DNA of 64,000 nt from Acidimicrobiia bacterium (lineage in GTDB: Bacteria > Actinomycetota > Acidimicrobiia > Spongiisociales > JAHEDJ01), in the NCBI GenBank assembly GCA_029210695.1, contig JARGFH010000006.1:29005-93004 (forward strand). Direction: 5' to 3'. Positions 18,829-59,732 of the stretch are shown one piece after another. The notes beneath the pieces are model-generated. The model was not told where the DNA came from, searched no databases, and saw only the letters and a program-made list of their open reading frames with translations. The position numbers were made by a program, and so were the translations under genes. Each line of letters opens with the position of its first letter. Position 1 is the first letter of the stretch.

Positions 18829-18835
18829 TTCGGCG

Positions 18836-33456: not shown

Positions 33457-33713
33457 GGTGTCGACAGATTCCGCCTACGACCCGTGAGGCTTGAACGGCC
33501 ATGATCACGGGGGGTAACCGCCAGCCTGATAGCGCATATCACCAAATCTCGGAGGGTTCCGCCCATATCTGAACCTCCCTGTCCCCGGGATCGGCACTTC
33601 TTGCTTGGCTGCCCGTATGGGTCGTGCCCAGCTCTTCCCACCACGGTGGCGTACTAGCGGCGCTCCTCTGGCGATGGACGTGCACCGAACGCCGCACCAC
33701 TCAACGACCGAAG

Positions 33714-35036: not shown

Positions 35037-35042
35037 GGCCGG

Positions 35043-36188: not shown

Positions 36189-36293
36189 CTCCCAACCTGG
36201 AACCATGACGTTTACGGGCTAGCCCTGAGGAGAAACGGTTTCGCCACCCAGCCGATGACCCGCACTTCCCTCTCGGGCCCTGGTTCCACCTCT

Positions 36294-41950: not shown

Positions 41951-42160
41951 GTGGCGCCCGATGTAAACACGAGCGACCTGATCGGTTCGGCCGAGGTGGC
42001 CGAGATCATCGGTCTCTCTCACACAACCAGCGTCACGACATATCTCAAGCGATACCCGGACTTCCCGAGGCCGGTTGTCGATCTGAGTAAGAGCCGAGTT
42101 CGGCTATGGAGACGACAGGACATTGTGGAGTGGTGCAAGCAGCGGTTGAAGAAGTCGTGA
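41951..42160 (+). CDS. small HTH DNA-binding protein (AlpA/Xis-like)
   Basis: 'IGSAEVAEIIGLSHTTSVTTYLKRYPDFPRPVV...RLWRRQDIVEW'. Confidence 0.5.
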   Translation: MAPDVNTSDLIGSAEVAEIIGLSHTTSVTTYLKRYPDFPRPVVDLSKSRVRLWRRQDIVEWCKQRLKKS

Positions 42161-42216
42161 CTCACGAGATCGTCGATGGGTCGGTGAGTGGTGGCCCCAG
42201 TACCAGCCAGACGATC

Positions 42217-42927
42217 ATGGTTGCCAGCCTGCAGCACTTGCTCAGGGTTGTTCCGGCCGACGCGCCACCCAGCGGGTATCGATCTGCCGTCATGGAAGAG
42301 AACGTCCTTGGGAAGGAGACCATGCGCGCTCGCGAGTGGGCTTTTCGGCAGCTCCGTCGCTTCTACGGTCTAGACCCCGACGTCTTGCTGTTTCGAGGGC
42401 TTCGCGATTTGTGGCCGGACGACCCGGTCGGTCAGCCTCTCCTCGCCATGTTGTGTGCCCTCGCTAGGGACGCTGTCCTGCGCTCAACGGCCGGGGTCAT
42501 CCTGAATTCAGAACCGGGTGTGCCCGTTGGCCCTACGGACTTTCGCTCGACCATTGAGGAGGCCTTCCCTGGCGTGTATGGCGACAAGACCCTTCGCACT
42601 GCTGCTGGGAACGTTGCATCTTCCTGGTATCAGGCTGGCCACTTGGACAAAGAGACACGGACGGAGAAGGTCCGAAGTCGGGCGACGGCTACACCGGCCG
42701 ACCTTGCCTATGGCCTACTACTCGGACACATAGAAGGTCACAGAGGCCAGGCATTGTTCGACACTCTTTGGACAAGGGTTCTCGACCAGCCGGCATCACG
42801 CCTTACCGACCTTGCGGTTACCGCGTCGCAGCGAGGTCTGATCGAGTTCAAGAACGCGGGTGGCATCGTTGACGTCGGCTTCACCGTGCTATTGCGTCCC
42901 TTTGATGACGAGGCTTCGTCGCTGTGA
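42217..42927 (+). CDS. brxA: BrxA-like (DUF1819) BREX protein; start uncertain (ORF opens at 42106)
   Basis: Its position is immediately upstream of, and overlapping, brxB. The ~230-aa helical protein is consistent with DUF1819, but this is a sequence-context call. Confidence 0.45.
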   Translation: MVASLQHLLRVVPADAPPSGYRSAVMEENVLGKETMRAREWAFRQLRRFYGLDPDVLLFRGLRDLWPDDPVGQPLLAMLCALARDAVLRSTAGVILNSEPGVPVGPTDFRSTIEEAFPGVYGDKTLRTAAGNVASSWYQAGHLDKETRTEKVRSRATATPADLAYGLLLGHIEGHRGQALFDTLWTRVLDQPASRLTDLAVTASQRGLIEFKNAGGIVDVGFTVLLRPFDDEASSL

Positions 42928-43484
42928 GTTACGTCGACCAACTCGTCGAGGCCTACCGGAAGTTCGTGGCTCTCCCATGGCAGGAGAACCTGGCTCCTCC
43001 GCAACGGGTGTGGATGACCGTGTACCCACCTGAGCACGAGCGCCGACTACGACTCCATCTGCCCGCGTTCAAGGCGGCGACCACCGAACACAACCGAGCC
43101 TGGGCGCTGATCGACATCACCATCTCCTTCGAGCAGTGGATGGCCGACCACGAGTACCGAGACGCCTACTTCGAGGATCCCGAACTCTTGGAGACGGCAC
43201 TCCCTGCCTTCTTCGACCATCTTGTGGAGCATGTGCGAGCGCGTCTTGCTGAGCAACCAGATCCGAAGGGAGTTGTGGCAGTTCTCGGTGCGGGCACGCT
43301 GTTCGGTTTGGGTGACGCGGTCAAGGTGTCCGCTCTGCTCAACGCGGTCAATGATGCGGTCGCCGGCCGATTGTTGATCTTCTTTCCGGGTGAGCACGAG
43401 GGCAACAGCTATCGCCTCCTCGACGCCCGAGATGGATGGAACTACCTGGCGACGCCGATCACACCAAACGGGAGAAACGGATGA
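42924..43484 (+). CDS. brxB: BrxB-like (DUF1788) BREX protein
   Basis: 186 aa, translationally coupled between brxA and brxC. 'WMTVYPPEHERRLRLHLPAFKAA...' fits the DUF1788 size and pattern. Confidence 0.55.
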   Translation: MSYVDQLVEAYRKFVALPWQENLAPPQRVWMTVYPPEHERRLRLHLPAFKAATTEHNRAWALIDITISFEQWMADHEYRDAYFEDPELLETALPAFFDHLVEHVRARLAEQPDPKGVVAVLGAGTLFGLGDAVKVSALLNAVNDAVAGRLLIFFPGEHEGNSYRLLDARDGWNYLATPITPNGRNG

Positions 43485-46400
43485 CCATCACGAACAGGGA
43501 ACTCTTCCACCGGGACCCTACCGCCACGAAGATCCCCAACGACGGAGTGGCCAAGGTCGTCCGTCCCGAGACCGACCAGCAATGGGACGTCTTGCACTGG
43601 GAACTCCGGAGCTTCGTGTGCGATGGTCAGTACGCCCTCGGTCTTGAGCGGATACTCGACAGCTTCCTCAAGAACCTGACCCAATCAGAGCAGCCAGCCG
43701 TCTGGATCAGCGGGTTCTACGGGAGCGGCAAGTCGCACCTCGTCAGGGTTCTCGAGCACTTGTGGCGCGACGTGGAGTTGCCAGGCGGCGACCGCGCACG
43801 CGAGCTCGTATCGCTCCCGGAGGAGATCAGTGACCACCTGGTCGAGCTGTCAACCGAGGGCAAGCGCAACGGGGGCCTCTGGTCTGCTGCCGGCACGCTG
43901 GCATCAGGGAAAAGCGACGAGGTGCGCATCGCCTTCTTATCGGTGCTGTTCGAGGCAGCCGGGCTGCCAGAGCAGTACCCGCTGGCCCGCTTCATGATCT
44001 GGGCCAAGGAGATCGGTTATCTCGACCACCTCACCGAAGCAGTCACCCAAGCCGGCCGGACACTCGACAAAGAGATCCACGATCTCTACGTCTCACCTGT
44101 GATTGCGAAGGCACTCCTCGAAGCAGATCCGAGTCTCGGCGACACCGTGAAGGACGTTCGCGACCTTCTCAAGACGCAGTTTCCGCCTACCACCCGAGAC
44201 ATCGACCGTGACGAGATGCTCGACGTCATGGAACGGGTCCTTGCCTTCCAGTCGACCACAGACGGGAAGGTCCCGCTCACCTTGATCGTCCTCGATGAGA
44301 TGCAGCAATACATCGGTGATGACAACGAGAAAGCGATCACCGTTCAGCTGATTGCCGAGGACTGCTCGTCCCGCTTCGAGAACCAAGTCCTCATCGTTGC
44401 CACCGGCCAGAGTGCGCTGACGGCCACCCCAACCCTCCAGAAGCTCACGGAGCGGTTCACGGTGATGGTTCCGCTGTCCGACCAGGACGTTGAATCGGTG
44501 ATTCGCGAAGTCGTGCTCCGCAAGCGCCCGGAGTTCGTCCCGGAGCTCAAGTCCACCCTCGAGTCGGTGAGCGGCGAGATCGACAAGCACCTTGCAGGAA
44601 CCCAGCTTGCCCCGAAAGCGGCCGACAAGCCCGACCTCGTGCCGGACTACCCGCTCCTCCCCACGCGCCGCAGATTCTGGGAACTGGCGCTCCGAGCGAT
44701 CGACCGCGCCGGCAAGGCTGGCGTCCTACGAACTCAGCTTCGGATCATGCACGAGGCCGCGGCCCGGGTGGCCGGAGAACCGATTGGTCACGTGGTCGGC
44801 GCTGACTTCCTCTACGACGAGCAGGCCCCGGGCATGCTGCAGAGCGGGGTCCTTCTCAAAGAGATCGACGAACTGATCGCCACCATGCGCACCGAGGGCG
44901 CCGACGGCGAGTTGAAAGCCCGGATCTGCGCCCTGGCCTTCCTGATTTCCCAGATTCGCCCGAAGACCATTGGTGCGGAGGGGCTGCGTGCCACTGCCCC
45001 GTTCCTGGCAGACCTCCTCGTGGAAGACCTCGCCGATGACGGAGCGAAGCTGCGTAAGAAGGTGCCCGAGATGCTTGACGTCCTCGTAAAGGACGGGCGC
45101 CTGATGCGCATCGAGGACGAGTACCGGCTCCAGACGGAAGAAGGGGCCGAGTGGGAGAAGGAGTACAGCAGCCGTCTCGCCGCCATCCGCGACGACGCAA
45201 GCCGCATGAATCAGCTCCGCAGCGAACGGATCGTCGCTGCTGTGGACGGTGCGCTCAGTGGACTGAAACTCGCACAGGGAGCCAGTAAGACGCCCAGGAA
45301 GGTTCAGACATACTGGGGTCAAGACGAGCCGTCGACAGTCGACGGGGACGTCCCAGTGTGGATTCGCGACGAGTGGTCGGTGACGGAGTCAGCCGTCAAG
45401 AAGTCGGCCGCTGAAGCTGGGGACGAGAGTCCCGTCGTTTTCGTCCTCCTCCCCAAGCACGAAGCCGACCAGATCAAGGACGCCCTCGCCAGCTACGCCG
45501 CGGCCGAGGACACGCTACGAAGGCCCACACCGCAAACCGATGAGGGCAAGGAGGCACAGCGGGCGATGAAGACCCGTCTCGCTACCGACGACGAGCGGCT
45601 CAAATCGCTCTTCCAGGATGTCGCTGCCCGCGCCCGAGTATTCCAGGGTGGCGGCGCCGAGGTCACCACGTCGACGCTCCGCAGCGCCGTCGAGACCGCC
45701 GCCAACCGGTCACTGATTCGGCTCTTTCCGAAGTTCGGCGCCAGCGACAACGCCAACTGGGGGAAGGTGGTGTCCAAGGCGCGAGACGGCGCCCCAGACG
45801 CCCTCGCCGCTATCGGCCACCACGGCGAGCCGACCACGCACCCAGTGTGCAAGGAGGTGCTGGCTTCTGTCAGCCCGGGCGGTACCAAAGGCGCTGACCT
45901 GCACAAACGGTTCGCCGGATCCCCGTACGGCTGGCCCCGGGATGCCGTGAACGGGGCGATCCTCACGCTTCTTGCCGCGGGCCACATCCGAGCCGGCCAG
46001 GACGGAAAGGACCTCGCCGGACCCAAGGAGTTGCCTCCAACGCAGATTGGCAAGGTCACCTTGTACAAGGAAGACGAACCGCCGACGATGGGGCAACAGC
46101 TCGCAATAAGAAGCTTGCTCACCGCAGCCGGAGTCGCATATGAACCCAGCCAGGAAGGCGCGCAGATCCCGGCCCTCCTCCAGCGGCTCAAAGACTTCGC
46201 GGGGCGCTCTGGGGGTGCGCCACCGCTCCCCGAGTCACCCGATGTCGATCATATTGACGCCCTGCTAGCCCTGGGAGGCAACCAGCGGTTCCGCGCCGTG
46301 GCCGACGACCACGAACGACTCAGTCAGGAACTCGAACAATGGCGCGCCGCCGACCAGAAACGGGAAAAGCGGGAGGCGGAATGGCTTGACTTACAGCGTC

Positions 46401-46945
46401 TGGTCCGTCACGCCGCCGGGCTTCCAGTCGAGGGAGCAGTCCAGTCTGCGGTCTCGGCGATTCGTGATGGCCGTCAGCTTCTCGATGAGCCCAACCCGCT
46501 CTCACCAATCCTGGATGAGCTGGCCGACGCCCTCCGCTCGGACGTCTTAGGTCGCGCCGAAGAGCTCGCTGCTGCGCAGCGAGACGCCATCGCCGATCTC
46601 GAGACGTGGGAAGGGTGGAACGATCTCAGCCCAGGCGATCGCGAGTCGATCATCGCCGAGTCCAAGCTGAATCCCGCAGCCGCGCCAGACGTCGCCACCG
46701 ATGCTCAACTCCTCGACACACTCGATGCCACTCCCTTGAGCTCCTGGCAGGATCGGATCAGCCTTGTCCCGAGTCGGCGGGATCAAGCCCGCCACCGCGC
46801 CGCGACGAAGCTCGAGCCCGAAAGCGTTTCCATCGAGCTTCCGTCAGCGACCATCAAGTCCCCAGACGATCTTGACGCGTACGTCGACGAGCTACGCGCC
46901 AAGGTGCAGCCCCATCTCGATGCGGACAAGACGGTGATCATCTAA
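43481..46945 (+). CDS. brxC: BrxC/PglY-like large P-loop ATPase of BREX
   Basis: ~1150 aa. Walker A 'SGFYGSGKSHLV' near the N-terminus, Walker B 'LIVLDEMQQYI', and a long helical C-terminus. ATGA overlap with brxB. Confidence 0.8.
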   Translation: MTITNRELFHRDPTATKIPNDGVAKVVRPETDQQWDVLHWELRSFVCDGQYALGLERILDSFLKNLTQSEQPAVWISGFYGSGKSHLVRVLEHLWRDVELPGGDRARELVSLPEEISDHLVELSTEGKRNGGLWSAAGTLASGKSDEVRIAFLSVLFEAAGLPEQYPLARFMIWAKEIGYLDHLTEAVTQAGRTLDKEIHDLYVSPVIAKALLEADPSLGDTVKDVRDLLKTQFPPTTRDIDRDEMLDVMERVLAFQSTTDGKVPLTLIVLDEMQQYIGDDNEKAITVQLIAEDCSSRFENQVLIVATGQSALTATPTLQKLTERFTVMVPLSDQDVESVIREVVLRKRPEFVPELKSTLESVSGEIDKHLAGTQLAPKAADKPDLVPDYPLLPTRRRFWELALRAIDRAGKAGVLRTQLRIMHEAAARVAGEPIGHVVGADFLYDEQAPGMLQSGVLLKEIDELIATMRTEGADGELKARICALAFLISQIRPKTIGAEGLRATAPFLADLLVEDLADDGAKLRKKVPEMLDVLVKDGRLMRIEDEYRLQTEEGAEWEKEYSSRLAAIRDDASRMNQLRSERIVAAVDGALSGLKLAQGASKTPRKVQTYWGQDEPSTVDGDVPVWIRDEWSVTESAVKKSAAEAGDESPVVFVLLPKHEADQIKDALASYAAAEDTLRRPTPQTDEGKEAQRAMKTRLATDDERLKSLFQDVAARARVFQGGGAEVTTSTLRSAVETAANRSLIRLFPKFGASDNANWGKVVSKARDGAPDALAAIGHHGEPTTHPVCKEVLASVSPGGTKGADLHKRFAGSPYGWPRDAVNGAILTLLAAGHIRAGQDGKDLAGPKELPPTQIGKVTLYKEDEPPTMGQQLAIRSLLTAAGVAYEPSQEGAQIPALLQRLKDFAGRSGGAPPLPESPDVDHIDALLALGGNQRFRAVADDHERLSQELEQWRAADQKREKREAEWLDLQRLVRHAAGLPVEGAVQSAVSAIRDGRQLLDEPNPLSPILDELADALRSDVLGRAEELAAAQRDAIADLETWEGWNDLSPGDRESIIAESKLNPAAAPDVATDAQLLDTLDATPLSSWQDRISLVPSRRDQARHRAATKLEPESVSIELPSATIKSPDDLDAYVDELRAKVQPHLDADKTVII

Positions 46946-49900
46946 TGGCGAAGACGACACCGCTCTCGCCATCGTTGCGGAAGCAACTCGAAACGGCGAT
47001 CCTGGCTGGTCGCCGTGCTGCTGAGAGTGCATCACGGGCTGCGATCGATGGGTTGGGCGTGTTCGCGGATCGGCGACCCGAGCATCTCAACTCCGAGCAG
47101 GCGTCATTGCGGGTCGGGTTGCGGACCAAGTGGCGTCAACTGGGGGATGATCGAGAGCTGCTGATCGCCGAGTGTGCATATGAGCAGTGGCACCGGCTCC
47201 TGTTCGCCCGGTTCCTCGCCGAGAATCGGCTGTTGCTCCACCCTCAGTTCCGGGCGGCGGTGACGTTGGCAGAGTGTGAGGATTTGGCTCCGGAGTTGGG
47301 TGAGCCGGATGGCTGGTCGGTGGCGGCCCGGTTTGCCTCGGAGATCCTGCCTGGAATCTTCCGGGTGGATGATCCCTGTGTCCGATTGCGGCTGGCGCCA
47401 GAAGGACGGCATGCCCTCGAGGAGATCCTGGCGGGGATCCCGCCAGAGGTGTTCCAGGCTGGCGATTCCCTGGGGTGGGTGTATCAGTTCTGGCAGAAGG
47501 ACAAGAAGGACGAGGTCAACGCATCGGAGCGGAAGATCGGCGGAGCGGATCTGGGACCGGTTACGCAGCTGTTCACCGAGAACTACATGGTCCGATTCCT
47601 CTTGGAGAACTCACTGGGGGCGTGGTGGTCGGCGCGGCATCCCGACAGCCCGCTGGTTAAGGGCTTCGACTACCTCAGACTCGATGATGAGGGTCAACCA
47701 ACAGCGGGATCGTTTGACGGGTGGCCCGATCGAGCCGCTGAGGTGACCCTGATGGACCCGTGCTGTGGGTCGGGTCACTTCCTGGTAGAGGCATTTTCGA
47801 TGTTGTGGCGGATGCGGGCCGAGGAAGAGGGGCTCAGTCCGACCGACGCGCAGGATGCGGTGTTGCGGGACAACCTGTTCGGCCTGGAGTTGGATCCCCG
47901 GTGCGTCCAGATCGCCATGATGGCGGTGGCCCTGCAGGCGTGGAAGGCAGGGGACGGGTGGCGTGAGCTGCCGGTGCCGAACATCGCCTGTTCAGGTATC
48001 CCGGTGAAAGCCCCGGTAGACGAGTGGAAGGCTCTGGCGGAGGGTGATGAGCGCCTTGAGAGCGCCCTTATCCGTCTACACATCCTGTTCCGCGAGGCCG
48101 ACACCTTCGGCAGTCTGATCGAGCCCAAGCGGGCAACTGAGATCAGCGACCCCACCCAATTGCAACAGTCGTTCGAGGATGTGGAGTGGGACGCGGTCGC
48201 TCCCCTACTCGAGAAGGCCGCATCAAGGGAGAGTAACGACCCCGCAATCGCTGTGCTCGGCGCTGACGCTGCCAGCATCGCCCGGGCCGCCGACTACCTC
48301 AGCCGTCGCTACTCCCTCGTCGCGACCAATGTCCCATACCTCGGGCGTCAGTTCATGGAGCGGCATCTACGGGACTACTGCGACCGGTACTACTCCGACG
48401 CGGCGTTTGACATCGCAACATGCTTCGTTGATCGCATGTCTCGGATGGGGGCGGTCGGATCTACCCGCGCAGTAGTGCTGCCGCAGAACTGGTTGTTCTT
48501 GGGCAGCTACTCGAAGATCCGATGTCGCCTTCTGGACGAGCTGACGTGGGCAATGTGTGTCCGCCTCGGGCCGGGTGCGTTTGAGGAGATAAGTGGCGAG
48601 GTGGTTCAGGCAAGTCTTCTGATTGCCAACGCTGGACCGCCCGATCCCGGTCATGCAATGGCGCTCTTGGACGCTCGTTCCGAGCGGCCAGCAGCTAGGA
48701 AGGCGGAAGCACTCCGCGCGGGGGCGCCGTTGTTGATCGACCAAGGCACGCAGAGATCGAACCCGGATTGCGTTGTGGCTTTCGAACTGCTCGGCACTGG
48801 CCCGCTCTTGAGCGAGTACGCCGACAGCATCCAAGGTTTCATCACTGGCGACAACGAACGATTCCGACGGTTCTTCTGGGAGATCGGGTCGCTAACGAAC
48901 GACCTCAGCTGGGATCGTATTCAGACGACGGTGAACGTCACACGGGCGTATGGAGGGCGTTCGGAGTACATGCGCTGGGAGCAAGGCCACGGGCACCTGG
49001 CGACTAGCCCGCAAGCGCGGGTCCAAGGGCTCCAGGCACGCGGTCGGCGCGGGGTCGCGCTCGCGCGGCTAGGCCAGCTCCCGGCGACTCTGTTCGATGG
49101 TGACTTCTTCTCAGACGCCGTCGGTTTGGTCGTGCCTCGCAACGAAGCCGACCTCCGCGCGGTTTGGGCGTTCTGCAGCTCGGATAGCTATTCGGCGGCT
49201 GTTCGAGCGATCAACACGAAGCTGAGCGTCGCAAACGCAACTCTCGTCAAAGTGCCATTCGACATCGACCACTGGCGCACGGTCGCCGAGGGCGCTGGTC
49301 CTCTACCGGAGCCGTGGTCGGACGATCCGACGCAGTGGCTATTCGAGGGCCGTCCGGAGTTGTCGACGGCCTCCTTGCAGGTGGCGGTAGCGAGGTTGGT
49401 GGGGTATCGCTGGCCAGAACAGCCACAGTCGGACGATCTCGAAGGGTTCGCCGACTCGGATGCGATTGTGTGCTTGCCGTCGGTGGCAGGTGAACCCCCT
49501 GCGGCCGATCGGGTGCACCGTCTGTTGGCGACGGCCTACGGGGAGGCCTGGTCGCCGGCCATGGTTAAGCGACTCCTGGAGGCGTCAGGCTCGAAGAAGA
49601 CGAGCTTGCCGGGTTGGCTGCGGGATGACTTCTTCAAACAGCACTGCGCCCTATTCGGGAACCGCCCGTTTGTCTGGCACATCTGGGATGGACAGCGTGA
49701 CGGGTTCTCGGCGTTCGTGAACTACCACCGGCTGGATCGTAAGAACCTTGAAAAGCTGACCTACACGTATCTGGGCACAGATTGGGTGGAGCGGCAGAAG
49801 GCTGAGGTGCGTGATGAGGTGGCAGGGGCGGAGGCCCGGTTGGTGGCTGCGCTGGAGCTGCAGGCCAAGTTGGAGCAGATCCTGGAGGGAGTTGCACCGT

Positions 49901-50142
49901 TCGATGTCTATGTCCGGTGGAAGGAACTGCATGAGCAGCCAATCGGGTGGGAACCTGATCTCAACGACGGGGTGCGGCTCAACATCCGTCCCTTCGTCGA
50001 GGCCGGGGTGCTGCGCTCCAAGTTCAACATCCACTGGCGTAAGGACCGAGGCAAGAACCCGGACGGGTCGGAGCGCCACAACGACGTCCAGCTCACCCTT
50101 ACCGACAAACGAACCGCACGCCAGAAAGCCGGCAAGCAATGA
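46945..50142 (+). CDS. pglX: PglX N6-adenine DNA methyltransferase of BREX
   Basis: Motif I 'LMDPCCGSGHFLVEAF' and motif IV 'LVATNVPYLG' (an NVPY variant of NPPY). ~1065 aa. Start overlaps the brxC stop (TAATG). Confidence 0.85.
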   Translation: MAKTTPLSPSLRKQLETAILAGRRAAESASRAAIDGLGVFADRRPEHLNSEQASLRVGLRTKWRQLGDDRELLIAECAYEQWHRLLFARFLAENRLLLHPQFRAAVTLAECEDLAPELGEPDGWSVAARFASEILPGIFRVDDPCVRLRLAPEGRHALEEILAGIPPEVFQAGDSLGWVYQFWQKDKKDEVNASERKIGGADLGPVTQLFTENYMVRFLLENSLGAWWSARHPDSPLVKGFDYLRLDDEGQPTAGSFDGWPDRAAEVTLMDPCCGSGHFLVEAFSMLWRMRAEEEGLSPTDAQDAVLRDNLFGLELDPRCVQIAMMAVALQAWKAGDGWRELPVPNIACSGIPVKAPVDEWKALAEGDERLESALIRLHILFREADTFGSLIEPKRATEISDPTQLQQSFEDVEWDAVAPLLEKAASRESNDPAIAVLGADAASIARAADYLSRRYSLVATNVPYLGRQFMERHLRDYCDRYYSDAAFDIATCFVDRMSRMGAVGSTRAVVLPQNWLFLGSYSKIRCRLLDELTWAMCVRLGPGAFEEISGEVVQASLLIANAGPPDPGHAMALLDARSERPAARKAEALRAGAPLLIDQGTQRSNPDCVVAFELLGTGPLLSEYADSIQGFITGDNERFRRFFWEIGSLTNDLSWDRIQTTVNVTRAYGGRSEYMRWEQGHGHLATSPQARVQGLQARGRRGVALARLGQLPATLFDGDFFSDAVGLVVPRNEADLRAVWAFCSSDSYSAAVRAINTKLSVANATLVKVPFDIDHWRTVAEGAGPLPEPWSDDPTQWLFEGRPELSTASLQVAVARLVGYRWPEQPQSDDLEGFADSDAIVCLPSVAGEPPAADRVHRLLATAYGEAWSPAMVKRLLEASGSKKTSLPGWLRDDFFKQHCALFGNRPFVWHIWDGQRDGFSAFVNYHRLDRKNLEKLTYTYLGTDWVERQKAEVRDEVAGAEARLVAALELQAKLEQILEGVAPFDVYVRWKELHEQPIGWEPDLNDGVRLNIRPFVEAGVLRSKFNIHWRKDRGKNPDGSERHNDVQLTLTDKRTARQKAGKQ

Positions 50143-52466: not shown

Positions 52467-54913
52467 GCGACCTCGACCAGCTCGACCAACTCGCCGCTCA
52501 GGTGTTCGAGGGTTACCTGGTCCGCAAGGATCTTGCCCAGCAGTTCCGCGGCCAGTACCCGGTGCCGACATACGTTGGCGAATTCCTGCTGGGTCGATAC
52601 TGCGCCACGACCGACCCCGACGAGATTGCCGAGGGGTTAGCGATCGTCGAGCGTTCCATGAAGGAGCGGACCGTCCGCGCCGGGGAGGAGGAGCTCTTCA
52701 AGTCGCGGGCACGGGAAAAGGGCCGGGTCAAGATCATCGATCTTCTCCGAGCGAAGCTCGACGCCAAAGCAGATGCCTACAAGGCAGAGATGCCCAGCCT
52801 CCAGCTCAGCGGCATCCACATCTCCGACGAGCTGGTCAACGAGCACGACCGCATGCTCACCGGCGGCTTCTATGCCGAAGTCACACTCGAGTACATCGCC
52901 GCTCTGGGCCGGGAGTCGGGAGGTCAGCCGTTCCGGGTCGAGGCGGTTCGGCCGATCCAGATGTCCACCAGGGACGCCTTGGACACGTTCGTCGCCGGCC
53001 GAAAGCGGTTCACGCTCGAGCAGTGGCGGCACCTGTTGCTACGTAGCGTCGGCTTCGAGCCCGATCGGTTCACGCCGCGGGAACAGGACGTGCTCTTGGC
53101 ACGCATGGTTCCGTTCGTCGTTCCCAACTACAACGCTGTCGAGCTGGGCCCACGTGGGACCGGCAAGTCCCATCTTTTCCAGCAGATCTCGCCATATTCC
53201 CACCTAGTTTCTGGGGGCAAAGCGACCGTCGCCAACATGTTCGTGAACAACACGACGGGCCGCAGGGGCCTCGTTGCTCAGTACGACGTGGTCTGTTTCG
53301 ACGAGGTGGCCGGCGTGTCGTTCGATACCAAGGAGGGGGTCAACATCCTGAAGGGCTACATGGAGGCGGGCGAGTTCAGCCGCGGCAAGGAGAGCATCCG
53401 CGCTGACGGCGGCATTGTCATGGTTGGCAACTTCGACGTCGACGTGGTCGAGGAGTTGCGACAAGGGCACCTGTTCGGTCCAATGCCCAAGGAGATGCGG
53501 GACGACACGGCGTTTCACGACCGGATCCACTCTTACCTGCCGGGATGGGACGTGCCCAAGCTCCACCCGTCCTACTTCACCGACCACTTCGGCTTCGTCA
53601 GCGACTTCCTCGCCGAGTGCTGGAGTCAGGTTCGTCGCACCTCGCGGCTGGACGTCACCCAGGGTCGGCTGTCGTGGGGCAGCCAGCTGAGCGGGCGAGA
53701 CCGCAAGGCGGCCGATAACACGGTCAATGGATTGCTGAAACTCCTTTGGCCTGACCCGGAGATGGACGTATCGGACGAGGCGCTTGCCTGGGCTGCCGAG
53801 CTTGCGCTGGAGCTTCGTCGCCGCGTCAAGGAGCAGCAGGCATTCATCGGCGCCGCTGAGTTTGGGAAGGTCGACCTGAGCTACCGCATCGGTGACGGTC
53901 CCGAGAAAGTTGTTTACTGCGAGGAGAGCGTCCGTCACCGACTTCGAATGGAATCCGAGGAGAAGGCTGGCGGGCCTGAGAGAACGCCGTCGCTGCCGAT
54001 CCCCGAGCCAGACGAAGTCACAACTGGCAGCGCGGCAAGGCACTACGCACCCGGTGACGAGATCGACGGACGTTTCGAGGTTCTTGAGGTGCTCGGCGAG
54101 GGTGGCTTCTCCAGGGTCTACAAGGTCGTTGATCTCGTGGAAGGCGAACAGCGGGCCTTGAAACTGTTCGAGAGCGCCGCCGGCTATGAGGCGGTCCGTC
54201 GTGAGATCGGCGCTTTGCGCATGGTCCATCACCCCAATGTCGTTACGGTCTTCTGGGCCGACAAGACCGCGGACGGGGACTGGTACCTCGTTTCGGAGTT
54301 CATCGACGGCGAGTCACTGGAGGAGTACACGTCGGGCGACCGACACCTTCGGGATCGAGAGGCGATCGACGTGGCACTCGACGTGCTCGATGCGCTGGTG
54401 GCCATTCACCCCGACGCCGTCCGTCTCTCAGAGCTTGAGGAGAAGCGCCGGGGCGGTGAGCTGTCTCAGGACGAGTACTACGAGATGCAGGAGCTGCAAG
54501 AGCACGGCCTCGTCCACCGAGACATCAAGCCCCTGAACATCATCCTCACCCGCCAAGGAGCCAAGCTGCTCGACTTCAACATCGCATCCCGAGTCGGTGA
54601 CCCCGTGAAGACCCTGTCGGGGACACCCCCGTATCAGGCCCCGGATGCCGACTACACCCGGTGGGACGTGACGACGGATTTGTTCGCCGTCGGAGTCGTC
54701 TTGTACGAGCTGCTCTGCAACGGAGAGCACCCGTACCCCGGTGGCAAGCCCATGGTTGGCGAAGCAGTTCGAGATCCACGGTCGGTCCGCCCTGATCTCA
54801 GCGCCGACCTGGCGAAGTTCCTCGTCAAGGCGTGCGCACCAGCTCGCAGTGATCGATTCATCACCGCTCAGGAGATGAAGGGCGCGCTCGAGGAAAGTCG
54901 AGCTACCGGGTGA
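52463..54913 (+). CDS. brxL: BrxL-like AAA+ (MCM/Lon-related) ATPase fused to a C-terminal Hanks-type Ser/Thr protein kinase domain
   Basis: GTG start overlapping the pglZ stop (GTGA). The N-terminal ~480 aa match BrxL ('YVGEFLLGRYCATTDPDEI', Walker A 'ELGPRGTGKSHLF', 'VVCFDEVAGV', 'RELALELRRRVKEQ'). The C-terminal ~290 aa (from ~54030) carry kinase subdomains: 'LGEGGFSRVYKV', 'ALKLF', 'HRDIKPLNIIL', 'DFN', 'GTPPYQAPD'. No Lon S16 protease domain is present. Confidence 0.8.
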   Translation: MSDLDQLDQLAAQVFEGYLVRKDLAQQFRGQYPVPTYVGEFLLGRYCATTDPDEIAEGLAIVERSMKERTVRAGEEELFKSRAREKGRVKIIDLLRAKLDAKADAYKAEMPSLQLSGIHISDELVNEHDRMLTGGFYAEVTLEYIAALGRESGGQPFRVEAVRPIQMSTRDALDTFVAGRKRFTLEQWRHLLLRSVGFEPDRFTPREQDVLLARMVPFVVPNYNAVELGPRGTGKSHLFQQISPYSHLVSGGKATVANMFVNNTTGRRGLVAQYDVVCFDEVAGVSFDTKEGVNILKGYMEAGEFSRGKESIRADGGIVMVGNFDVDVVEELRQGHLFGPMPKEMRDDTAFHDRIHSYLPGWDVPKLHPSYFTDHFGFVSDFLAECWSQVRRTSRLDVTQGRLSWGSQLSGRDRKAADNTVNGLLKLLWPDPEMDVSDEALAWAAELALELRRRVKEQQAFIGAAEFGKVDLSYRIGDGPEKVVYCEESVRHRLRMESEEKAGGPERTPSLPIPEPDEVTTGSAARHYAPGDEIDGRFEVLEVLGEGGFSRVYKVVDLVEGEQRALKLFESAAGYEAVRREIGALRMVHHPNVVTVFWADKTADGDWYLVSEFIDGESLEEYTSGDRHLRDREAIDVALDVLDALVAIHPDAVRLSELEEKRRGGELSQDEYYEMQELQEHGLVHRDIKPLNIILTRQGAKLLDFNIASRVGDPVKTLSGTPPYQAPDADYTRWDVTTDLFAVGVVLYELLCNGEHPYPGGKPMVGEAVRDPRSVRPDLSADLAKFLVKACAPARSDRFITAQEMKGALEESRATG

Positions 54914-55027
54914 ATCTCATCTATCGAACCGGACGCCTACCCATGGGAGGGAGACGCTCGGGTGACAAATTGGCAGCGGTCATAATCACGGACATGTACG
55001 CGGCAACGTCGATCCCAGGAAGTCAGC

Positions 55028-57526
55028 ATGTGGCGCCGCGTTGATCTGCACAACCATACATTCCCAAATGAAACCTGCGACACAGAGTGGGACCCAGATC
55101 ACTTCGTCGCGTCCTGTGCTGATGTGGGCATCGACGTCATCGCAGTCACTGACCACGACACGTGCGATCGCGTGGCTGACGTCGTGGCTGCCGCCGGCGA
55201 CGTCGTCCACGTAGTTCCCGGTGTCGAACTCACTACTGACAGAGGGCACATCATCGCTCTTGGGCCCGGTGATGGGGGCCTGGCGATCGTCGAGGAGCTT
55301 CTCACCCGAGTAGGCGCGAGGCCCGGAGAGCAGGTCGATCTGCTTCGGCTGTTTGAGGCGCTCTCTGAGAATTGCAGCACTGGGCAGCCCTTCGCCTCGG
55401 CCATCGTGGTCATCGGAGCCCACGTCGATATGGACGGTCAGCTGCTCGGCTCTCCGAATTCGTTGAGTATCGAACGGCAACTTCGGTACGCCGGTCAGCT
55501 AGATGCTCTAGAGGTGGCCCGTGACGAGGTATTCGCCGAGTGGGTCCGCACTGGCGTGAAACAGGGACCGCACATGACCCTCCTGCGCGGTTCAGACGCT
55601 CATGATCCGGAAAACCGCAGAGATGTTGGGCAGTGGCTTTACCTTCCTGAGCTGTCGGCGGCGGCGTTCCATCACGCTCTGGCTCTGCCTGAGGCTTCCG
55701 TCAGGTACGAACAGCCCGATCCACCGCCAACATGGGTTATCGAGGCGGTCGAGTTTGACGGCGGCATGCACGAAGGGCATGTGTTCGCCTTCTGCGAACG
55801 AACCAACGCCGTCATCGGCCCACCAAACTCTGGGAAGTCGCTGCTCATCGACGCGCTGAAGTTCGCGTTCGGTATCGCCTGTGACCTAGACGAGGTCGAG
55901 GCCATCACGAAGAACCGAATGGCGAAGTGCCTACCGGCCGGGACGATCATATCCGTACGGCTACGCACAGCCGACGGACCGACCACTATCACGCGAACGG
56001 TGGGAGGTGCCGAAAGCCCCGACCCCCCATTTCAGCCGATTGTGTTCAGCCAGACTGAATTGACCCGACGTGCGCACGAGCCACGGCCGAGCATTCGACT
56101 GCTCGACGTGCACTGCCCCGATGCTGCCTCTATGAAGATCAGCCTATCGGAGGTACAAGGTGAGGTTGTCGATCTGTTCGTGAGGCTCGTCGCTGATGCC
56201 AAAGAGATCCGTCGTCTGGCCGGGCTCATCGGCAACACTGAGGATGGGCTGGCAGCAACGCGTAACCGGCTGCAGAACTTGGCCGGCACAGAGGAAGTCG
56301 CACAGACTGCCACGGCGACCTCCCGGGTTGGTCGGTGGCGCGCCAGCACACGGGAGCGCCTCGAAATGTGGCGTGATGAAGCCGAGCCACCAAGTCCGGA
56401 CGTACCCCGAGTGCCTGACGGCGTTGCTGGCCACGAAACGCTGGCTCCGCTGGTCCCCGGCGATCGGCTCACCGCTGCCATTGAGGCCTATGAACGGGAG
56501 GCTCGCGAGCTGATAGCCCGCCACGCCGAGTTGATGCTGAGTTCACTGGATGAGAGATCAGCTGACTTCGAGGCCATGAGTCGGGACGTGGTGGCGAAGC
56601 TTGCCGAGGCCGGCTTCAGTGAAGGATCGGAAGTGGAGATCGAGCTGAAGCGACTCCGAGATCGTCTACACGAAATGGAGGAGCTGGATGAACAGCGTCG
56701 CGAACTCGAAGAGGCTCTGGACGCTGATCTTGTGAACCTTCGCAATCTCATCCAGCGTGCCGCGGAGCTGCGATCCGCGCTAACCCGGGTTCGCAAGGAG
56801 GCTTGCACCCGGGTCAATGCCTCGATGCGCACCTTCTTCGCCCTGATCGACGGCGAGGGCGCCGCGGGCCGTCTTGATGAGATTATCAATGATCTGAAGA
56901 TCGGGACGTACATGCGGCCTGAGACCCGGAAGAAGATACGGGAGGAGCTTGACCGGCCAGCGCTACTTGAACAAGCAGTACGGCTCGCACAAGGTCGATT
57001 GACGGACACCGACGACGCATCGGACCAGGAGAGACTGGTTAGCCAAGCGATGGAGCGTGAGCGCCACCAGGATCTGGCGAGGCTTGCGACGACGTGGCCC
57101 GGAGACGGCCTTGATCTCCGAAAGAAGGGTGGCAGCGGCGCCGACACAGCGTCGTTCAATGAGCTGACGGAAGGGCTGCGCGCCCTGGCCATCAAGGAGA
57201 TCTCGTTCGCGGCATCCGAGCTTCCGGTTGTCACGGACCAACCGGAGGACGCAGTCCCGACCCGCGCCGTCTATGACAGCCTTGTACCAACTCTGCGCGA
57301 GCAGCGTGCAATCAGACAATTCATCGTCGTCAGTCACGACGCCAACCTTGTAGTTGCCAGCGACATGGAAAGCGTGACGGCCTTGGAGGGAGCCGATGAC
57401 GGAAGCCCGTACAGCGGATCCCTATTCGATCGCCGCATTCGGGACCTCGCTCTGGAGCACCTGGAAGGCGGAATCGAGGCGTTCGATCGCCGAGCCACGC
57501 GCTACGGACGACCTCTACCCGCGTGA
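55028..57526 (+). CDS. Ppl-like protein: N-terminal PHP phosphoesterase domain + SMC/RecF-type ABC ATPase with coiled coil
   Basis: PHP motifs 'DLHNHT', 'IAVTDHD' and 'HVVPGVELTT'. Walker A 'IGPPNSGKSLLIDALKFAFG'. A long charged coiled-coil region. C-terminal Walker B/D-loop 'RQFIVVSHDANLV'. Confidence 0.65.
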   Translation: MWRRVDLHNHTFPNETCDTEWDPDHFVASCADVGIDVIAVTDHDTCDRVADVVAAAGDVVHVVPGVELTTDRGHIIALGPGDGGLAIVEELLTRVGARPGEQVDLLRLFEALSENCSTGQPFASAIVVIGAHVDMDGQLLGSPNSLSIERQLRYAGQLDALEVARDEVFAEWVRTGVKQGPHMTLLRGSDAHDPENRRDVGQWLYLPELSAAAFHHALALPEASVRYEQPDPPPTWVIEAVEFDGGMHEGHVFAFCERTNAVIGPPNSGKSLLIDALKFAFGIACDLDEVEAITKNRMAKCLPAGTIISVRLRTADGPTTITRTVGGAESPDPPFQPIVFSQTELTRRAHEPRPSIRLLDVHCPDAASMKISLSEVQGEVVDLFVRLVADAKEIRRLAGLIGNTEDGLAATRNRLQNLAGTEEVAQTATATSRVGRWRASTRERLEMWRDEAEPPSPDVPRVPDGVAGHETLAPLVPGDRLTAAIEAYEREARELIARHAELMLSSLDERSADFEAMSRDVVAKLAEAGFSEGSEVEIELKRLRDRLHEMEELDEQRRELEEALDADLVNLRNLIQRAAELRSALTRVRKEACTRVNASMRTFFALIDGEGAAGRLDEIINDLKIGTYMRPETRKKIREELDRPALLEQAVRLAQGRLTDTDDASDQERLVSQAMERERHQDLARLATTWPGDGLDLRKKGGSGADTASFNELTEGLRALAIKEISFAASELPVVTDQPEDAVPTRAVYDSLVPTLREQRAIRQFIVVSHDANLVVASDMESVTALEGADDGSPYSGSLFDRRIRDLALEHLEGGIEAFDRRATRYGRPLPA

Positions 57527-59271: not shown

Positions 59272-59732
59272 CGGCCGATGCCACCTTGCCGGGTCTCTCG
59301 GTGTGGCCGGCGGTGGTCGGTGTCGAGGGCGCGGAGGAGCGGGATTTGACAGGCGCCGCATCGGCAGGCACGCGGGGTGGGTTGGGTCCAGGCGTCGGGC
59401 CAGTAGGGGATCGTGGTGACACAGGGTGTGCAGAGGGCGTGGCTGCCGAGCAGCGGGATGAGCGTGTATTCGTCGTCGACGGGGATCTGGCTGTTACACA
59501 GGTCACAGATCCACAGGCTGTTGTCGTCGGGGACGCTGCTGATGATGACCACGCCGAGACGTTCCATCTCCTCGCGGATGCCGGCTTCGGCGGCGACACG
59601 GCGCCGGTAGGTCTCGCGGTGGGCGGCGGGTCGGACTATGAACCGCAACTCGTTCCGACACGGCTCGCAGAGACCCTGAGGTGTGAGGCGAGCCGACGTG
59701 TCGCAGCTTCGGCAGGTGTCGTTGGAGTTCAT
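59268..59732 (-). CDS. Cys-rich protein with four CxxC pairs (two putative zinc ribbons)
   Basis: 'CRSCDTS...CEPCRNE', 'CDLCNSQ', 'CTPC', 'CRCGAC'. ATG at 59732. It sits in the conjugation operon with 4-nt overlaps on both sides. Confidence 0.5.
   Translation of the reverse strand: MNSNDTCRSCDTSARLTPQGLCEPCRNELRFIVRPAAHRETYRRRVAAEAGIREEMERLGVVIISSVPDDNSLWICDLCNSQIPVDDEYTLIPLLGSHALCTPCVTTIPYWPDAWTQPTPRACRCGACQIPLLRALDTDHRRPHRETRQGGIGR

What the first reader, a model, noticed from the sequence alone, without database searches (positions are those of the whole stretch)
42106..57526. Defence cargo (BREX plus a Ppl-like gene) embedded between the relaxase and the T4SS genes of a conjugative element
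The relaxase (38705..41824) lies upstream. Downstream lie the T4CP, SLT/M23 hydrolase, VirB6-like and VirB4-like genes (57.6-64 kb). The ~15 kb between them is a contiguous defence block, so the defence genes would transfer with the element. A small HTH gene (41951..42160) sits at the boundary and overlaps the brxA ORF.
Basis: inference. Interest (0 to 1): 0.6.

Follow-up and report, generated by a model that had tools for sequence, protein, structure and literature searches.

The report
Defence-gene slot in a conjugative element
An integrated conjugative element of an uncultured Acidimicrobiia bacterium carries a complete BREX anti-phage system and a second defence-like gene in a slot that holds different defence systems in related elements; this is a familiar arrangement, but the BREX here has an undescribed BrxL protein fused to a protein kinase.

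Summary
Between the stop codons of a TrwC relaxase (38705-41824, +) and a VirD4-type coupling protein (57598-59361, -) lie 15.8 kb of defence genes. They form two modules. The first is an AlpA-like HTH gene leading a complete type-1 BREX operon (brxA, brxB, brxC, pglX, pglZ, brxL). The second is a separate PHP+ABC-ATPase gene that is only loosely Ppl-like.

Related Acidimicrobiia elements share the backbone but fill the same slot differently. I found type III, IIG and II restriction-modification genes, three BREX subtypes, Hma, Druantia, a Dnd/Pbe-like ATPase and helicase-nucleases. Where both flanks are visible the interval runs from about 1 kb to 15.8 kb. The block is therefore variable cargo in a defence hotspot, not backbone. 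The closest known case is hotspot 5 of SXT elements.

Corrections:
- The HTH belongs to the BREX operon and overlaps brxA by only 4 nt.
- The "Ppl-like" gene fails the Ppl and TrlF family thresholds.
- BrxL lacks a Lon domain and instead carries a PglW-type Ser/Thr kinase. I found no description of this variant.

A second defence slot lies at about 32.0-36.3 kb. The right end of the element lies outside the window, so excision and transfer remain untested.

The parts
18836..20158 (-). Tyrosine integrase of the element
   Evidence: Pfam Phage_integrase 3e-24. In relatives, homologous integrases sit 100-200 bp from a tRNA gene. A 226-bp stretch upstream (20117-20342) is conserved in L010, L016 and L017.
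22582..32006 (+). Conserved backbone: Tad-pilus-like genes (RcpC/CpaB, CpaF ATPase, TadB/C) and a 1122-aa LysM protein
   Evidence: Pfam hits. Nucleotide synteny with L013, L007, L005 and L014.
32007..36293 (.). Second variable slot: DUF4238 gene 32431-33456(-) and two genes of unknown function, 33714-35036(-) and 35043-36188(+)
   Evidence: Absent from the relatives' backbone alignment. The interval is only about 0.7 kb in L013. GC is 0.583. In relatives the slot holds PD-Lambda-5 (L005) and PDC-M19 (L007). The DUF4238 gene has a weak PADLOC hit to DUF4238-Pers, 4.8e-8.
36294..38243 (-). ArdC-like anti-restriction domain fused to a DnaG-type primase (backbone)
   Evidence: Pfam ArdcN 6.4e-16, DNAG_N 1.9e-36, Toprim. 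Conserved in L005, L007, L013 and L014.
38705..41824 (+). TrwC-type relaxase-helicase; left flank of the slot
   Evidence: Pfam TrwC 8.6e-72, AAA_30 6.4e-50. 17 related loci found.
41951..42160 (+). AlpA-like small HTH gene, first gene of the BREX operon
   Evidence: PADLOC PDC-M06B 7e-8. JGI names homologues 'AlpA'. Homologues at 66-72% identity abut brxA-brxB-brxC-pglX in non-conjugative contexts, L071-L075. The stop overlaps the brxA start as GTGA.
42157..42927 (+). brxA
   Evidence: PADLOC BrxA 4e-76. Start inferred from N-terminal conservation.
42924..43484 (+). brxB
   Evidence: PADLOC BrxB 1e-65. Pfam BrxB 1.3e-5.
43481..46945 (+). brxC (P-loop ATPase). The longest ORF starts at 43436; the likely start is ATG 43481.
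   Evidence: PADLOC E=0; NCBIfam BREX_BrxC 746 bits against a cutoff of 400. Walker A GFYGSGKS. Start read from the sequence.
46945..50142 (+). pglX N6-adenine methyltransferase, with a hypervariable patch at aa ~451-760 (window ~48295-49225)
   Evidence: PADLOC PglX E=0. Motif I DPCCGSG and motif IV NVPY. The patch is 28-46% identical to L018, against 80-94% elsewhere in the protein.
50139..52466 (+). pglZ (type 1B)
   Evidence: NCBIfam BREX_PglZ_1_B 822 bits against a cutoff of 400. PADLOC 4.5e-256.
52463..54913 (+). brxL fused to a C-terminal Ser/Thr protein kinase (816 aa); no Lon domain
   Evidence: Pfam BrxL_N 1.2e-43, BrxL_ATPase 3.9e-119, Pkinase 7.9e-32. NCBIfam TIGR02688 443 bits against 329; MAD6 kinase 3.3e-53; PglW 1.1e-22. 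Kinase motifs are intact and a roughly 30-aa insert is shared with PglW-like kinases.
55028..57526 (+). PHP-domain + ABC/SMC-type ATPase gene (Ppl/TrlF-like); a separate cargo module
   Evidence: NCBIfam TrlF 198 bits (cutoff 350), Ppl 101 bits (cutoff 1000), CehA/McbA 2.7e-14. HNH at aa 8 and Walker A at aa 264. Not part of the shared BREX module, since homology to L018-L021 ends at 54892. GC3 is 0.68.
57598..59361 (-). VirD4/TraG-type coupling protein (T4CP); right flank of the slot
   Evidence: Pfam T4SS-DNA_transf 1.4e-41, TraG-D_C 3.1e-25. 44 related loci found.
60056..63998 (-). T4SS genes: SLT/M23 hydrolase, TrbL/VirB6-like, VirB4-like ATPase (runs off the window)
   Evidence: Pfam hits. 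Syntenic in L023, L025-L027, L029, L030 and others.
16747..18906 (-). GmrSD-family type IV restriction gene overlapping the 3' end of the integrase gene
   Evidence: Pfam GmrSD_N 1.3e-33 and GmrSD_C 3.9e-25. PADLOC Orf5 1.3e-105, mREase_IV 2.7e-74.

Best explanation
The window holds the left and central part of a chromosomally integrated, T4SS-type conjugative element (ICE) of an Acidimicrobiia bacterium. Its backbone runs: tyrosine integrase, Tad-like pilus genes, LysM protein, ArdC-primase, TrwC relaxase, then T4CP, hydrolase, VirB6 and VirB4.

The relaxase operon and the T4SS operon converge. The junction between their two stop codons is a cargo slot that this family of elements uses for anti-phage and anti-MGE systems.

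In this copy the slot holds two independently acquired modules:
1. An AlpA-like HTH gene translationally coupled to a complete type-1 BREX operon. PglX would methylate host DNA at a motif set by its variable target-recognition patch. BrxC, PglZ, BrxA, BrxB and BrxL would exclude unmethylated incoming DNA.
2. A single PHP-nuclease-like + ABC-ATPase gene.

Because the block lies inside the transferred DNA, a recipient gains the defence systems along with the element. Cargo turnover most likely happens by homologous recombination between related elements through the conserved flanking genes.

What is shown: gene identities, intactness, operon couplings, variability of the slot across relatives, and independent occurrence of the BREX module elsewhere. 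What is inferred: transfer competence, the recombination route of exchange, and defence activity.
For: The source is an Acidimicrobiia MAG.

The backbone is conserved across independent contigs:
- Relaxase loci L001-L017.
- T4CP loci L023-L066.
- Synteny maps.

Cargo found in the same slot of relatives:
- L001: type III R-M.
- L003: HKD-Snf2 helicase plus type IIG/DrmMI-like methyltransferase.
- L005: type III R-M plus UvrD-like helicase.
- L007: HTH plus a different BREX subtype (all four).
- L023: type IIG R-M plus a distant Ppl-like gene. This is the closest backbone (T4CP 94%, VirB4 93%).
- L025: caspase-like domain fused to a helicase.
- L028: MTase_II/PglXI-like methyltransferase.
- L029 and L031: type IIG R-M.
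- L030: PbeC/DndD-like ATPase.
- L042: HmaA (these).
- L047, L048 and L054: Hma.
- L056: Druantia I.
- L045: methyltransferase.
- L024: a BREX with a 40%-identical BrxL.
- L040: the same BrxL-kinase BREX (83% identity), although its T4CP is only 68% identical.

Other support:
- Window-to-L001 nucleotide homology breaks at about 41650 and resumes at 57636.
- The BREX module alone, at 83-85% nt identity, sits next to metabolic genes in L018-L021. It is chromosomal in Pseudonocardia cypriaca.
- The HTH-brxA-brxB-brxC-pglX arrangement recurs in non-ICE defence islands.
- All BREX ORFs are intact, with catalytic motifs present.
- The concept has a precedent in SXT ICE hotspot 5, which carries BREX or R-M systems and confers phage resistance after conjugation (bioRxiv 10.1101/2020.12.16.423150).
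Against: - No att repeat was found in the window. The right end of the element lies beyond 64 kb, so its limits and excision competence are not established.
- The integrase is 10.5 kb from the nearest tRNA gene (tRNA-Met, 8287-8361). In relatives the integrase lies 100-200 bp from a tRNA.
- PADLOC single-protein hits do not prove that the relatives' systems are complete.
- For 4 of the 23 readable slots there is no defence match at E<=1e-8. L027 and L035 gave no hit on the protein tested, L013 gave only weak hits, and L039 is nearly empty.
- Compositional contrast between BREX and the backbone is small.
- All relatives are MAG or metagenome contigs, so some could be misassembled or decayed. 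In L005, for example, the T4CP is reduced to a 43-aa fragment.
- No recombination junctions, transposases or repeats mark the slot edges. The exchange mechanism is therefore inferred.
Confidence: 0.84

Rival explanations
1. The conjugation genes are a decayed, immobile remnant. On this reading the region is simply a chromosomal defence island that grew around them, and the defence genes no longer travel by conjugation.
For: No att sites were found in the window. An ISL3 transposase split by a group II intron, and 10.5 kb of extra genes, lie between the tRNA-Met and the integrase. Some relatives are clearly decayed: L005 has only a T4CP fragment, and L070 has a relaxase C-terminal fragment next to an HTH and a truncated brxA.
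Against: The integrase, primase, relaxase (1039 aa), T4CP, hydrolase and VirB6 ORFs are all full length. They stay syntenic at 57-94% aa identity across many independent contigs. Relatives sit next to different tRNA genes, which indicates recent mobility of the family.
Confidence: 0.1
2. BREX is conserved backbone of this element family, for example because it is needed for element maintenance, and is not exchangeable cargo.
For: BREX of some subtype occupies the slot in 4 of 23 loci: the window, L007, L024 and L040. L040 carries the same BrxL-kinase subtype in the same orientation on a divergent backbone.
Against: The closest backbone relative, L023 (T4CP 94%), carries type IIG R-M and a different PHP-ATPase instead. 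Fifteen of the other 19 slots have PADLOC matches to non-BREX systems. The same BREX occurs without conjugation genes. In L040 the BrxL-kinase is more conserved (83%) than the T4CP (68%), which fits independent acquisition.
Confidence: 0.03
3. The juxtaposition is an assembly artefact: a MAG chimera joining a BREX island to a conjugative element.
For: The source is a metagenome-assembled genome. I could not retrieve the contig or any read coverage. Exact-protein look-ups for PglZ and for the BrxL-kinase (P0001) returned no record.
Against: The exact HTH and BrxL-kinase proteins are both recorded on a single 106,668-bp NCBI contig. Independent contigs from other samples also show defence cargo, including this BREX subtype in L040, between the same two backbone genes. 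There is no composition jump at the joins.
Confidence: 0.03

Closest known systems
SXT/R391 ICE hotspot 5 (for example ICEVchInd5, which carries type-1 BREX plus an Abi gene)
   Same: A fixed position in a conserved conjugative backbone that almost always carries anti-phage systems (BREX, R-M, DISARM-like). Content differs between otherwise similar elements, and the systems are delivered to recipients by conjugation (bioRxiv 10.1101/2020.12.16.423150; PMC11580459).
   Different: - The phylum differs (Acidimicrobiia/Actinomycetota rather than Gammaproteobacteria) and the backbone is unrelated (TrwC relaxase, Tad-like genes, SLT/M23 hydrolase).
- The slot lies at the convergent relaxase/T4CP junction.
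- No shared WYL regulator is present. Here an AlpA-like HTH travels with BREX.
- There is at least one further defence slot, between the LysM gene and the primase gene.
- No experimental evidence exists for this family.
Type-1 BREX (Goldfarb et al. 2015 classification; the E. coli, Acinetobacter and Salmonella systems)
   Same: All six genes are present in the canonical order brxA-brxB-brxC-pglX-pglZ-brxL, with strong family matches.
   Different: The C-terminal Lon-like domain of BrxL is replaced by a Ser/Thr kinase. PglZ is the NCBIfam 'type B' form. An AlpA-like HTH leads the operon instead of a BrxR/WYL regulator.
PglW of type-2 BREX (Pgl) and other defence kinases (MADS MAD6, PD-T4-6)
   Same: The kinase domain is about 50% identical to the second (active) kinase of NERD + tandem-kinase PglW-like proteins. 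It shares with them a roughly 30-aa insert before the HRD motif and a DFN motif. It also matches NCBIfam MAD6 at 3.3e-53 and PADLOC PD-T4-6 at 8.7e-44.
   Different: There is no NERD nuclease, no pseudokinase and no C-terminal sensor domains. The kinase is attached to an MCM-like AAA+ BrxL core inside a type-1 gene set, and no brxD or brxHI is present.
Ppl and TrlF-family PHP-ATPases
   Same: An N-terminal PHP/CehA-type metallohydrolase domain followed by an ABC/SMC-type ATPase. The C-terminal region aligns to both families.
   Different: Scores are far below both equivalog cutoffs: Ppl 101 against 1000 bits, TrlF 198 against 350 bits. It is best described as a member of the wider PHP + ABC-ATPase group, not of either family.

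Membership tests
Type-1 BREX | brxA, brxB, brxC, pglX, pglZ and brxL together on one strand | tested here: met
   PADLOC and NCBIfam matches for all six genes. Start/stop overlaps between HTH/brxA, brxA/brxB, brxB/brxC, brxC/pglX, pglX/pglZ and pglZ/brxL come from the ORF coordinates and direct sequence reads.
Type-1 BREX | BrxL = N-terminal DNA-binding region + MCM-like AAA+ ATPase + C-terminal Lon-like domain (or the HKD variant) | tested here: not met
   BrxL_N and BrxL_ATPase are present. The C-terminus is Pkinase (7.9e-32), with no Lon_C or PLD hit. The full-length Lon-type model TIGR02653 scores below its cutoff (502 against 628), and the alignment stops at position 471 of 675.
Type-1 BREX | PglX with N6-adenine methyltransferase motifs I and IV | tested here: met
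   DPCCGSG at aa 271 and NVPY at aa 462. Homologues have NVPY, NPPF or NPPY at the same position.
Type-1 BREX | Methylation of a non-palindromic motif and exclusion of unmethylated phage | not testable with these tools
   Needs methylome data or a phage challenge.
Type-2 BREX (Pgl) | pglW (NERD + tandem kinases + sensor domains), brxD and brxHI, with pglX, pglY and pglZ | tested here: not met
   Only a PglW-type kinase domain is present, as a fusion to BrxL (NCBIfam PglW 79.7 bits against a cutoff of 990). None of the nine ORFs in the block matched BrxD or BrxHI in PADLOC. NERD appears in Pfam only on the PglW-like proteins P0327 and P0378, not on these ORFs.
Ppl (NCBIfam NF042955 / PADLOC Ppl) | Full-length match above the equivalog cutoff | tested here: not met
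   101.5 bits against a cutoff of 1000. Only residues 675-825 align. The PADLOC alignment covers 608-825 only.
TrlF-family AAA-like ATPase (NF045780) | Score above the cutoff of 350 | tested here: not met
   198 bits. The match covers model positions 586-944 only.
T4SS-type integrative conjugative element | Integrase + relaxase + T4CP + VirB4 in one syntenic block | tested here: met
   The synteny is repeated in relatives. The VirB4 gene is cut by the window end.
T4SS-type integrative conjugative element | attL/attR direct repeats bounding the element, typically at a tRNA gene | tested here: inconclusive
   No repeat of the tRNA-Met 3' end or other att-like repeat was found within the window. 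The right end lies outside the window. Relatives have the integrase next to a tRNA.
ICE defence hotspot (SXT hotspot-5 type) | The same backbone position holds different, mostly defence-related cargo in related elements | tested here: met
   19 of 23 readable slots have PADLOC matches at E<=1e-8, covering at least 10 system kinds. The interval ranges from about 1 kb to 15.8 kb.
ICE defence hotspot (SXT hotspot-5 type) | A shared WYL-domain regulator at the edge of the hotspot | tested here: not met
   The window block gave no WYL hit in Pfam or PADLOC. The PADLOC models matched by the relatives' cargo proteins are not regulator families. The small HTH here is AlpA-like and travels with BREX.

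The most novel reading that the evidence does not exclude
[quoted passage not shown] The usual inactive-Lon or HKD C-terminus of BrxL is replaced by an apparently active PglW-type Ser/Thr kinase.

On this reading, the MCM-like DNA-loading ATPase would couple recognition of unmethylated DNA to protein phosphorylation, giving an abortive or signalling output. The variant forms one tight, very conserved family: at least 120 clusters (grouped at 90% identity) that are 79% or more identical to the query. It is present in at least Acidimicrobiia and Sphaerisporangium, and its BREX subtype also occurs in a Pseudonocardia chromosome. In this window it is caught on a conjugative element.

Its nearest BrxL relatives carry Schlafen, Lon, PLD-like or no C-terminal domain. 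That suggests the BrxL C-terminus is a swappable effector socket.
Probability: 0.5. Interest if true: 0.65.

Novelty: new member of a known kind. Interest (0 to 1): 0.5.

Why it matters
Defence hotspots on conjugative elements have been shown experimentally mainly in Gammaproteobacteria (the SXT elements). This window and its relatives show the same logic in an uncultured actinobacterial class. There are two or more dedicated slots and a rich catalogue of cargo: three BREX subtypes, R-M types II, IIG and III, Hma, Druantia, PD-Lambda-5, and several large genes with no match to any known defence family.

Such slots are practical places to look for new defence genes. They also help explain how systems such as BREX spread across Actinomycetota.

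The BrxL-kinase fusion is the more interesting by-product. It physically links a type-1 BREX core to the kinase that defines type-2 (Pgl). This gives a tractable way to ask what the BrxL C-terminal domain and the Pgl kinase actually do.

Tried and rejected
- **Source contig.** Exact-protein look-ups of the window's PglZ and of the 100%-identical BrxL (P0001), meant to fetch the source contig and see the element's right end, returned nothing.
- **att sites.** A whole-window direct-repeat search gave only chance-level repeats.
- **Slot edges.** Promoter and terminator scans of the slot found 0 promoter-like sites. They found 11 terminator-like sites against 8.8 expected, which is uninformative. 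Inverted-repeat searches at the slot edges and in the primase-relaxase intergenic region (a candidate oriT) found nothing convincing.
- **GC and codon usage.** BREX (GC 0.634, GC3 0.76) sits between chromosome (0.629) and backbone (0.663). Only the PHP-ATPase gene (GC3 0.68) and slot 2 (GC 0.583) stand out.
- **HTH as a backbone gene.** I first considered this because L007 also has one after its relaxase. I rejected it once homologues were found leading BREX operons in non-conjugative contexts.
- **PHP-ATPase as part of BREX.** Rejected. Copies of the same BREX in L018-L022 are followed by DUF5677 or Metallophos/AAA_23 genes instead.
- **Solved structures.** A PDB sequence search with the PHP-ATPase gave only weak PHP and SMC matches.
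- **Plasmids.** PLSDB holds no full-length BrxL-kinase.
- **Literature.** Searches found no description of a BrxL-kinase fusion.

Full report
**1. What is in the window**

ORF listing, GC3 frame analysis and profile searches give the following map.
- 20-8169: chromosomal genes (Lon_C/PDZ, DivIVA, UPF0182), followed by tRNA-Met at 8287-8361.
- An ABC transporter, then an ISL3 transposase gene split by a group II intron (RT/maturase 12736-14331; Rfam Intron_gpII at 14337-14436).
- A GmrSD-type restriction gene (16747-18906, -) overlapping the 3' end of a tyrosine integrase gene (18836-20158, -).
- Tad-pilus-like genes and a 1122-aa LysM protein.
- A low-GC stretch with a DUF4238 gene and two unknown genes (32.0-36.3 kb).
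- An ArdC-primase fusion (36294-38243, -) and a TrwC relaxase-helicase (38705-41824, +).
- The block in question.
- On the minus strand: a VirD4-type T4CP (57598-59361), an SLT/M23 hydrolase, a TrbL/VirB6-like protein, and a VirB4-like ATPase that runs off the window.

A 100%-identical BrxL and the HTH are recorded on one 106,668-bp contig of an Acidimicrobiia MAG.

**2. The block itself**

PADLOC and NCBIfam identify BrxA (4e-76), BrxB (1e-65), BrxC (E=0; 746 bits against a cutoff of 400), PglX (E=0), PglZ 'BREX-1 type B' (822 against 400) and BrxL (4.9e-212). These matches are far beyond chance.

Successive genes overlap by a few bases, as read from the sequence.
- The HTH stop and brxA start overlap as GTGA at 42157-42160.
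- brxB and brxC overlap as ATGA at 43481-43484.
- pglZ and brxL overlap as GTGA at 52463-52466.

In 14 BrxA homologues, conservation begins at 'EIV', three residues after GTG 42157.

The catalytic motifs are present.
- BrxC: Walker A.
- PglX: DPCCGSG and NVPY. NVPY is a variant of NPPY that recurs in homologues.
- BrxL: Walker A.

The last gene (55028-57526) has an N-terminal PHP/CehA-type domain (HNH at aa 8) and an ABC/SMC-type ATPase. It scores far below the Ppl cutoff (101 against 1000 bits) and the TrlF cutoff (198 against 350 bits). 'Ppl-like' therefore describes its architecture, not membership of the family.

**3. Cargo or backbone?**

I fetched 17 loci related by the relaxase from species-representative genomes and 44 related by the T4CP from metagenomes. 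I then mapped the window's proteins onto them.

The backbone order LysM, ArdC-primase, relaxase on one side and T4CP, hydrolase, VirB6, VirB4 on the other is conserved. The relaxase and T4CP genes always converge.

The interval between the two stop codons varies widely: about 1.0 kb (L039), 5.2 (L029), 6.4 (L023), 6.7 (L001), 7.7 (L031), 9.0 (L028/L046) and 15.8 kb (window). It exceeds 10 kb in L003 and L007.

Slot contents found by PADLOC:
- Type III R-M (L001, L005).
- HKD-Snf2 helicase plus a IIG/DrmMI-like methyltransferase (L003).
- A different BREX preceded by an HTH homologue (L007).
- Type IIG R-M plus a distant PHP-ATPase (L023, the closest backbone: T4CP 94%, VirB4 93%).
- A caspase-like domain fused to a helicase (L025).
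- An MTase_II/PglXI-like methyltransferase (L028).
- Type IIG R-M (L029, L031).
- A PbeC/DndD-like ATPase (L030).
- HmaA (L042).
- Hma A/B/C (L047, L048, L054).
- Druantia type I plus an MzaB-like gene (L056).
- A type II methyltransferase (L045).
- A third BREX subtype (L024).
- The same BrxL-kinase BREX on a backbone whose T4CP is only 68% identical (L040).

L027 and L035 gave no match on the protein tested. L013 gave only weak matches. In all, 19 of 23 readable slots hold recognisable defence genes, and only four hold BREX.

Nucleotide homology between the window and L001 stops at about 41650 and resumes at 57636.

The BREX module alone, 83-85% nt identical over 42743-54892, lies next to a DUF5677 gene and metabolic genes in L018-L021. 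More distant copies are chromosomal, for example in Pseudonocardia cypriaca. That homology ends 21 nt before the brxL stop, so the PHP-ATPase gene is a separate acquisition.

The block is variable cargo in a defence hotspot.

Composition gives only weak support: BREX GC 0.634 and GC3 0.76, PHP-ATPase GC3 0.68, backbone GC 0.663 and GC3 0.78.

**4. The HTH gene**

Homologues are named AlpA-like by JGI. At 66-72% identity they directly abut brxA-brxB-brxC-pglX in defence islands that have no conjugation genes nearby. Their neighbours there are AbiTii, GmrSD, an MZB helicase and a patatin (L071-L075).

Other copies of this BREX lack the HTH (L067-L069). The HTH is therefore an optional leader gene of the BREX operon and probably its regulator. 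It is not a boundary gene of the element. The cargo begins at 41951.

**5. How it most likely works**

Shown:
- A complete, intact BREX operon and a second defence-like gene sit inside the conserved backbone of an integrated T4SS-type element.
- They occupy a position where relatives carry other defence systems.

Inferred from established knowledge of ICEs and BREX:
- The block is transferred with the element.
- In the new host, PglX methylates the chromosome and the BREX proteins exclude unmethylated phage or plasmid DNA.
- The ArdC-primase on the other side of the presumed oriT region helps the incoming strand escape the recipient's restriction.
- Cargo is exchanged between related elements by homologous recombination through the conserved relaxase and T4CP genes. 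No transposase, recombinase or repeat marks the slot edges.

A convergent gene junction is a position where insertions disrupt no operon. The closest precedent is hotspot 5 of SXT ICEs. There, BREX or R-M systems occupy one fixed site and confer phage resistance on exconjugants.

**6. The unexpected part: BrxL**

The 816-aa BrxL has BrxL_N (1.2e-43) and the MCM-like ATPase (3.9e-119) but no Lon domain. Residues from about 530 to 816 are a Ser/Thr kinase (Pkinase 7.9e-32; MAD6 3.3e-53; PD-T4-6 8.7e-44; PglW 1.1e-22).

The Gly-rich loop, the ALK lysine, the alpha-C glutamate, HRDIKPLN, DFN and APD are all present.

An alignment shows a roughly 30-aa insert before the HRD motif. This insert is shared with NERD + tandem-kinase, PglW-like proteins (about 50% identity). 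It is also shared with kinases fused to receiver or STAND-like domains (62-70% identity). It is absent from PknB, a reference sequence I supplied from memory.

The fusion family is large but tight. At least 120 clusters (grouped at 90% identity) are 79% or more identical to the query, and one of them is named for a Sphaerisporangium genome. At 50% clustering, the family collapses to a single representative, plus one divergent and probably independent BrxL-kinase fusion.

The nearest BrxL cores (56-66% identity) end in Schlafen/AlbA_2, Lon_C or PLD-like (MIT_C) domains, or in nothing. The BrxL C-terminus thus behaves as an exchangeable effector position.

The 2026 survey of BREX diversity lists Lon, HKD and C-terminus-less BrxL forms only (PMC12839542). 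Phrase searches found no paper describing a BrxL-kinase, and PLSDB has no full-length copy. NCBI labels these proteins simply 'BrxL'. I regard this as a probably undescribed variant of type-1 BREX. Its function is inferred, not shown.

**7. Limits**

- The element's right end is outside the window and no att repeat was found.
- The integrase is 10.5 kb from the tRNA-Met, whereas relatives have it 100-200 bp from a tRNA.
- All comparators are MAG or metagenome contigs, and some are decayed (L005, L070).
- PADLOC hits on single proteins do not prove complete systems.

**8. Verdict**

As a phenomenon it is a new member of a known kind: a defence hotspot on a conjugative element, here in an unstudied Acidimicrobiia family with at least two such slots. 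The BrxL-kinase BREX variant is the feature most worth following up.

Noticed in passing
window 52463-54913: BrxL lacks a Lon domain and carries a C-terminal, apparently active PglW-type Ser/Thr kinase. The family is tight and very conserved (at least 79% identical to the query across 120 or more 90%-identity clusters). It is not mentioned in the 2026 BREX survey or in any paper I could search.
   Followed up: yes
window ~48295-49225 (PglX aa ~451-760): A hypervariable patch in PglX is 28-46% identical to the L018 homologue, against 80-94% in the rest of the protein. It is probably a swapped target-recognition region, implying a different BREX motif.
   Followed up: partly
window 32007-36293: A second variable slot lies between the LysM gene and the ArdC-primase gene (DUF4238 plus two unknown genes, GC 0.58). 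The interval is only about 0.7 kb in L013. In relatives it holds PD-Lambda-5 (L005), PDC-M19 (L007) and an E1-E2-like gene (L014). The two unknown genes are candidate defence genes.
   Followed up: partly
window 16747-18906: A GmrSD-family type IV restriction gene overlaps the 3' end of the integrase gene by about 70 nt. This is a third defence item on or beside the element.
   Followed up: partly
window 11484-14999: An ISL3-family transposase gene is split in two (11484-12356 and 14055-14999) by a group II intron. The intron has an RT/maturase ORF at 12736-14331 and an Rfam Intron_gpII match at 14337-14436.
   Followed up: partly
window 22582-27134: Tad/Flp-pilus-like genes (RcpC/CpaB, CpaF ATPase, TadB/C-like) are part of the conserved conjugative backbone and are syntenic in L013. 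This is unusual equipment for an actinobacterial T4SS element.
   Followed up: no
window 20117-20342; L010, L016, L017: A 226-bp stretch just upstream of the integrase gene is conserved (74-84% nt). It recurs in smaller relatives where tRNA, integrase and relaxase are directly adjacent (L004, L006, L009, L010, L015-L017). These may be mobilisable elements lacking a nearby T4SS.
   Followed up: no
L070 750-3862: An apparent decayed remnant. It has a relaxase C-terminal fragment (46% identity), GIY-YIG and DUF7662 genes, an HTH (86% identity) and a truncated brxA, followed by metabolic genes.
   Followed up: no
L005 18863-19196: The T4CP is reduced to a 43-aa fragment and is followed by a short kinase-like fragment. 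This relative's element looks degenerate.
   Followed up: no
P0254, P0255, P0253, P0302: The same kinase module, with its distinctive insert, occurs at 62-70% identity fused to a receiver domain or a STAND-like NTPase. It also occurs in tandem-kinase proteins, at 67% identity in P0253 and 55% in P0302. It appears to be a mobile defence-effector domain.
   Followed up: partly
L025 8958-12074; L028 5829-7415; L035 3407-5035; L013 13530-16025: Several large genes in the hotspot of relatives have odd or no PADLOC matches. They include a caspase-like + helicase fusion and proteins of 528, 542 and 831 aa with no hit. These are candidates for new defence genes.
   Followed up: no
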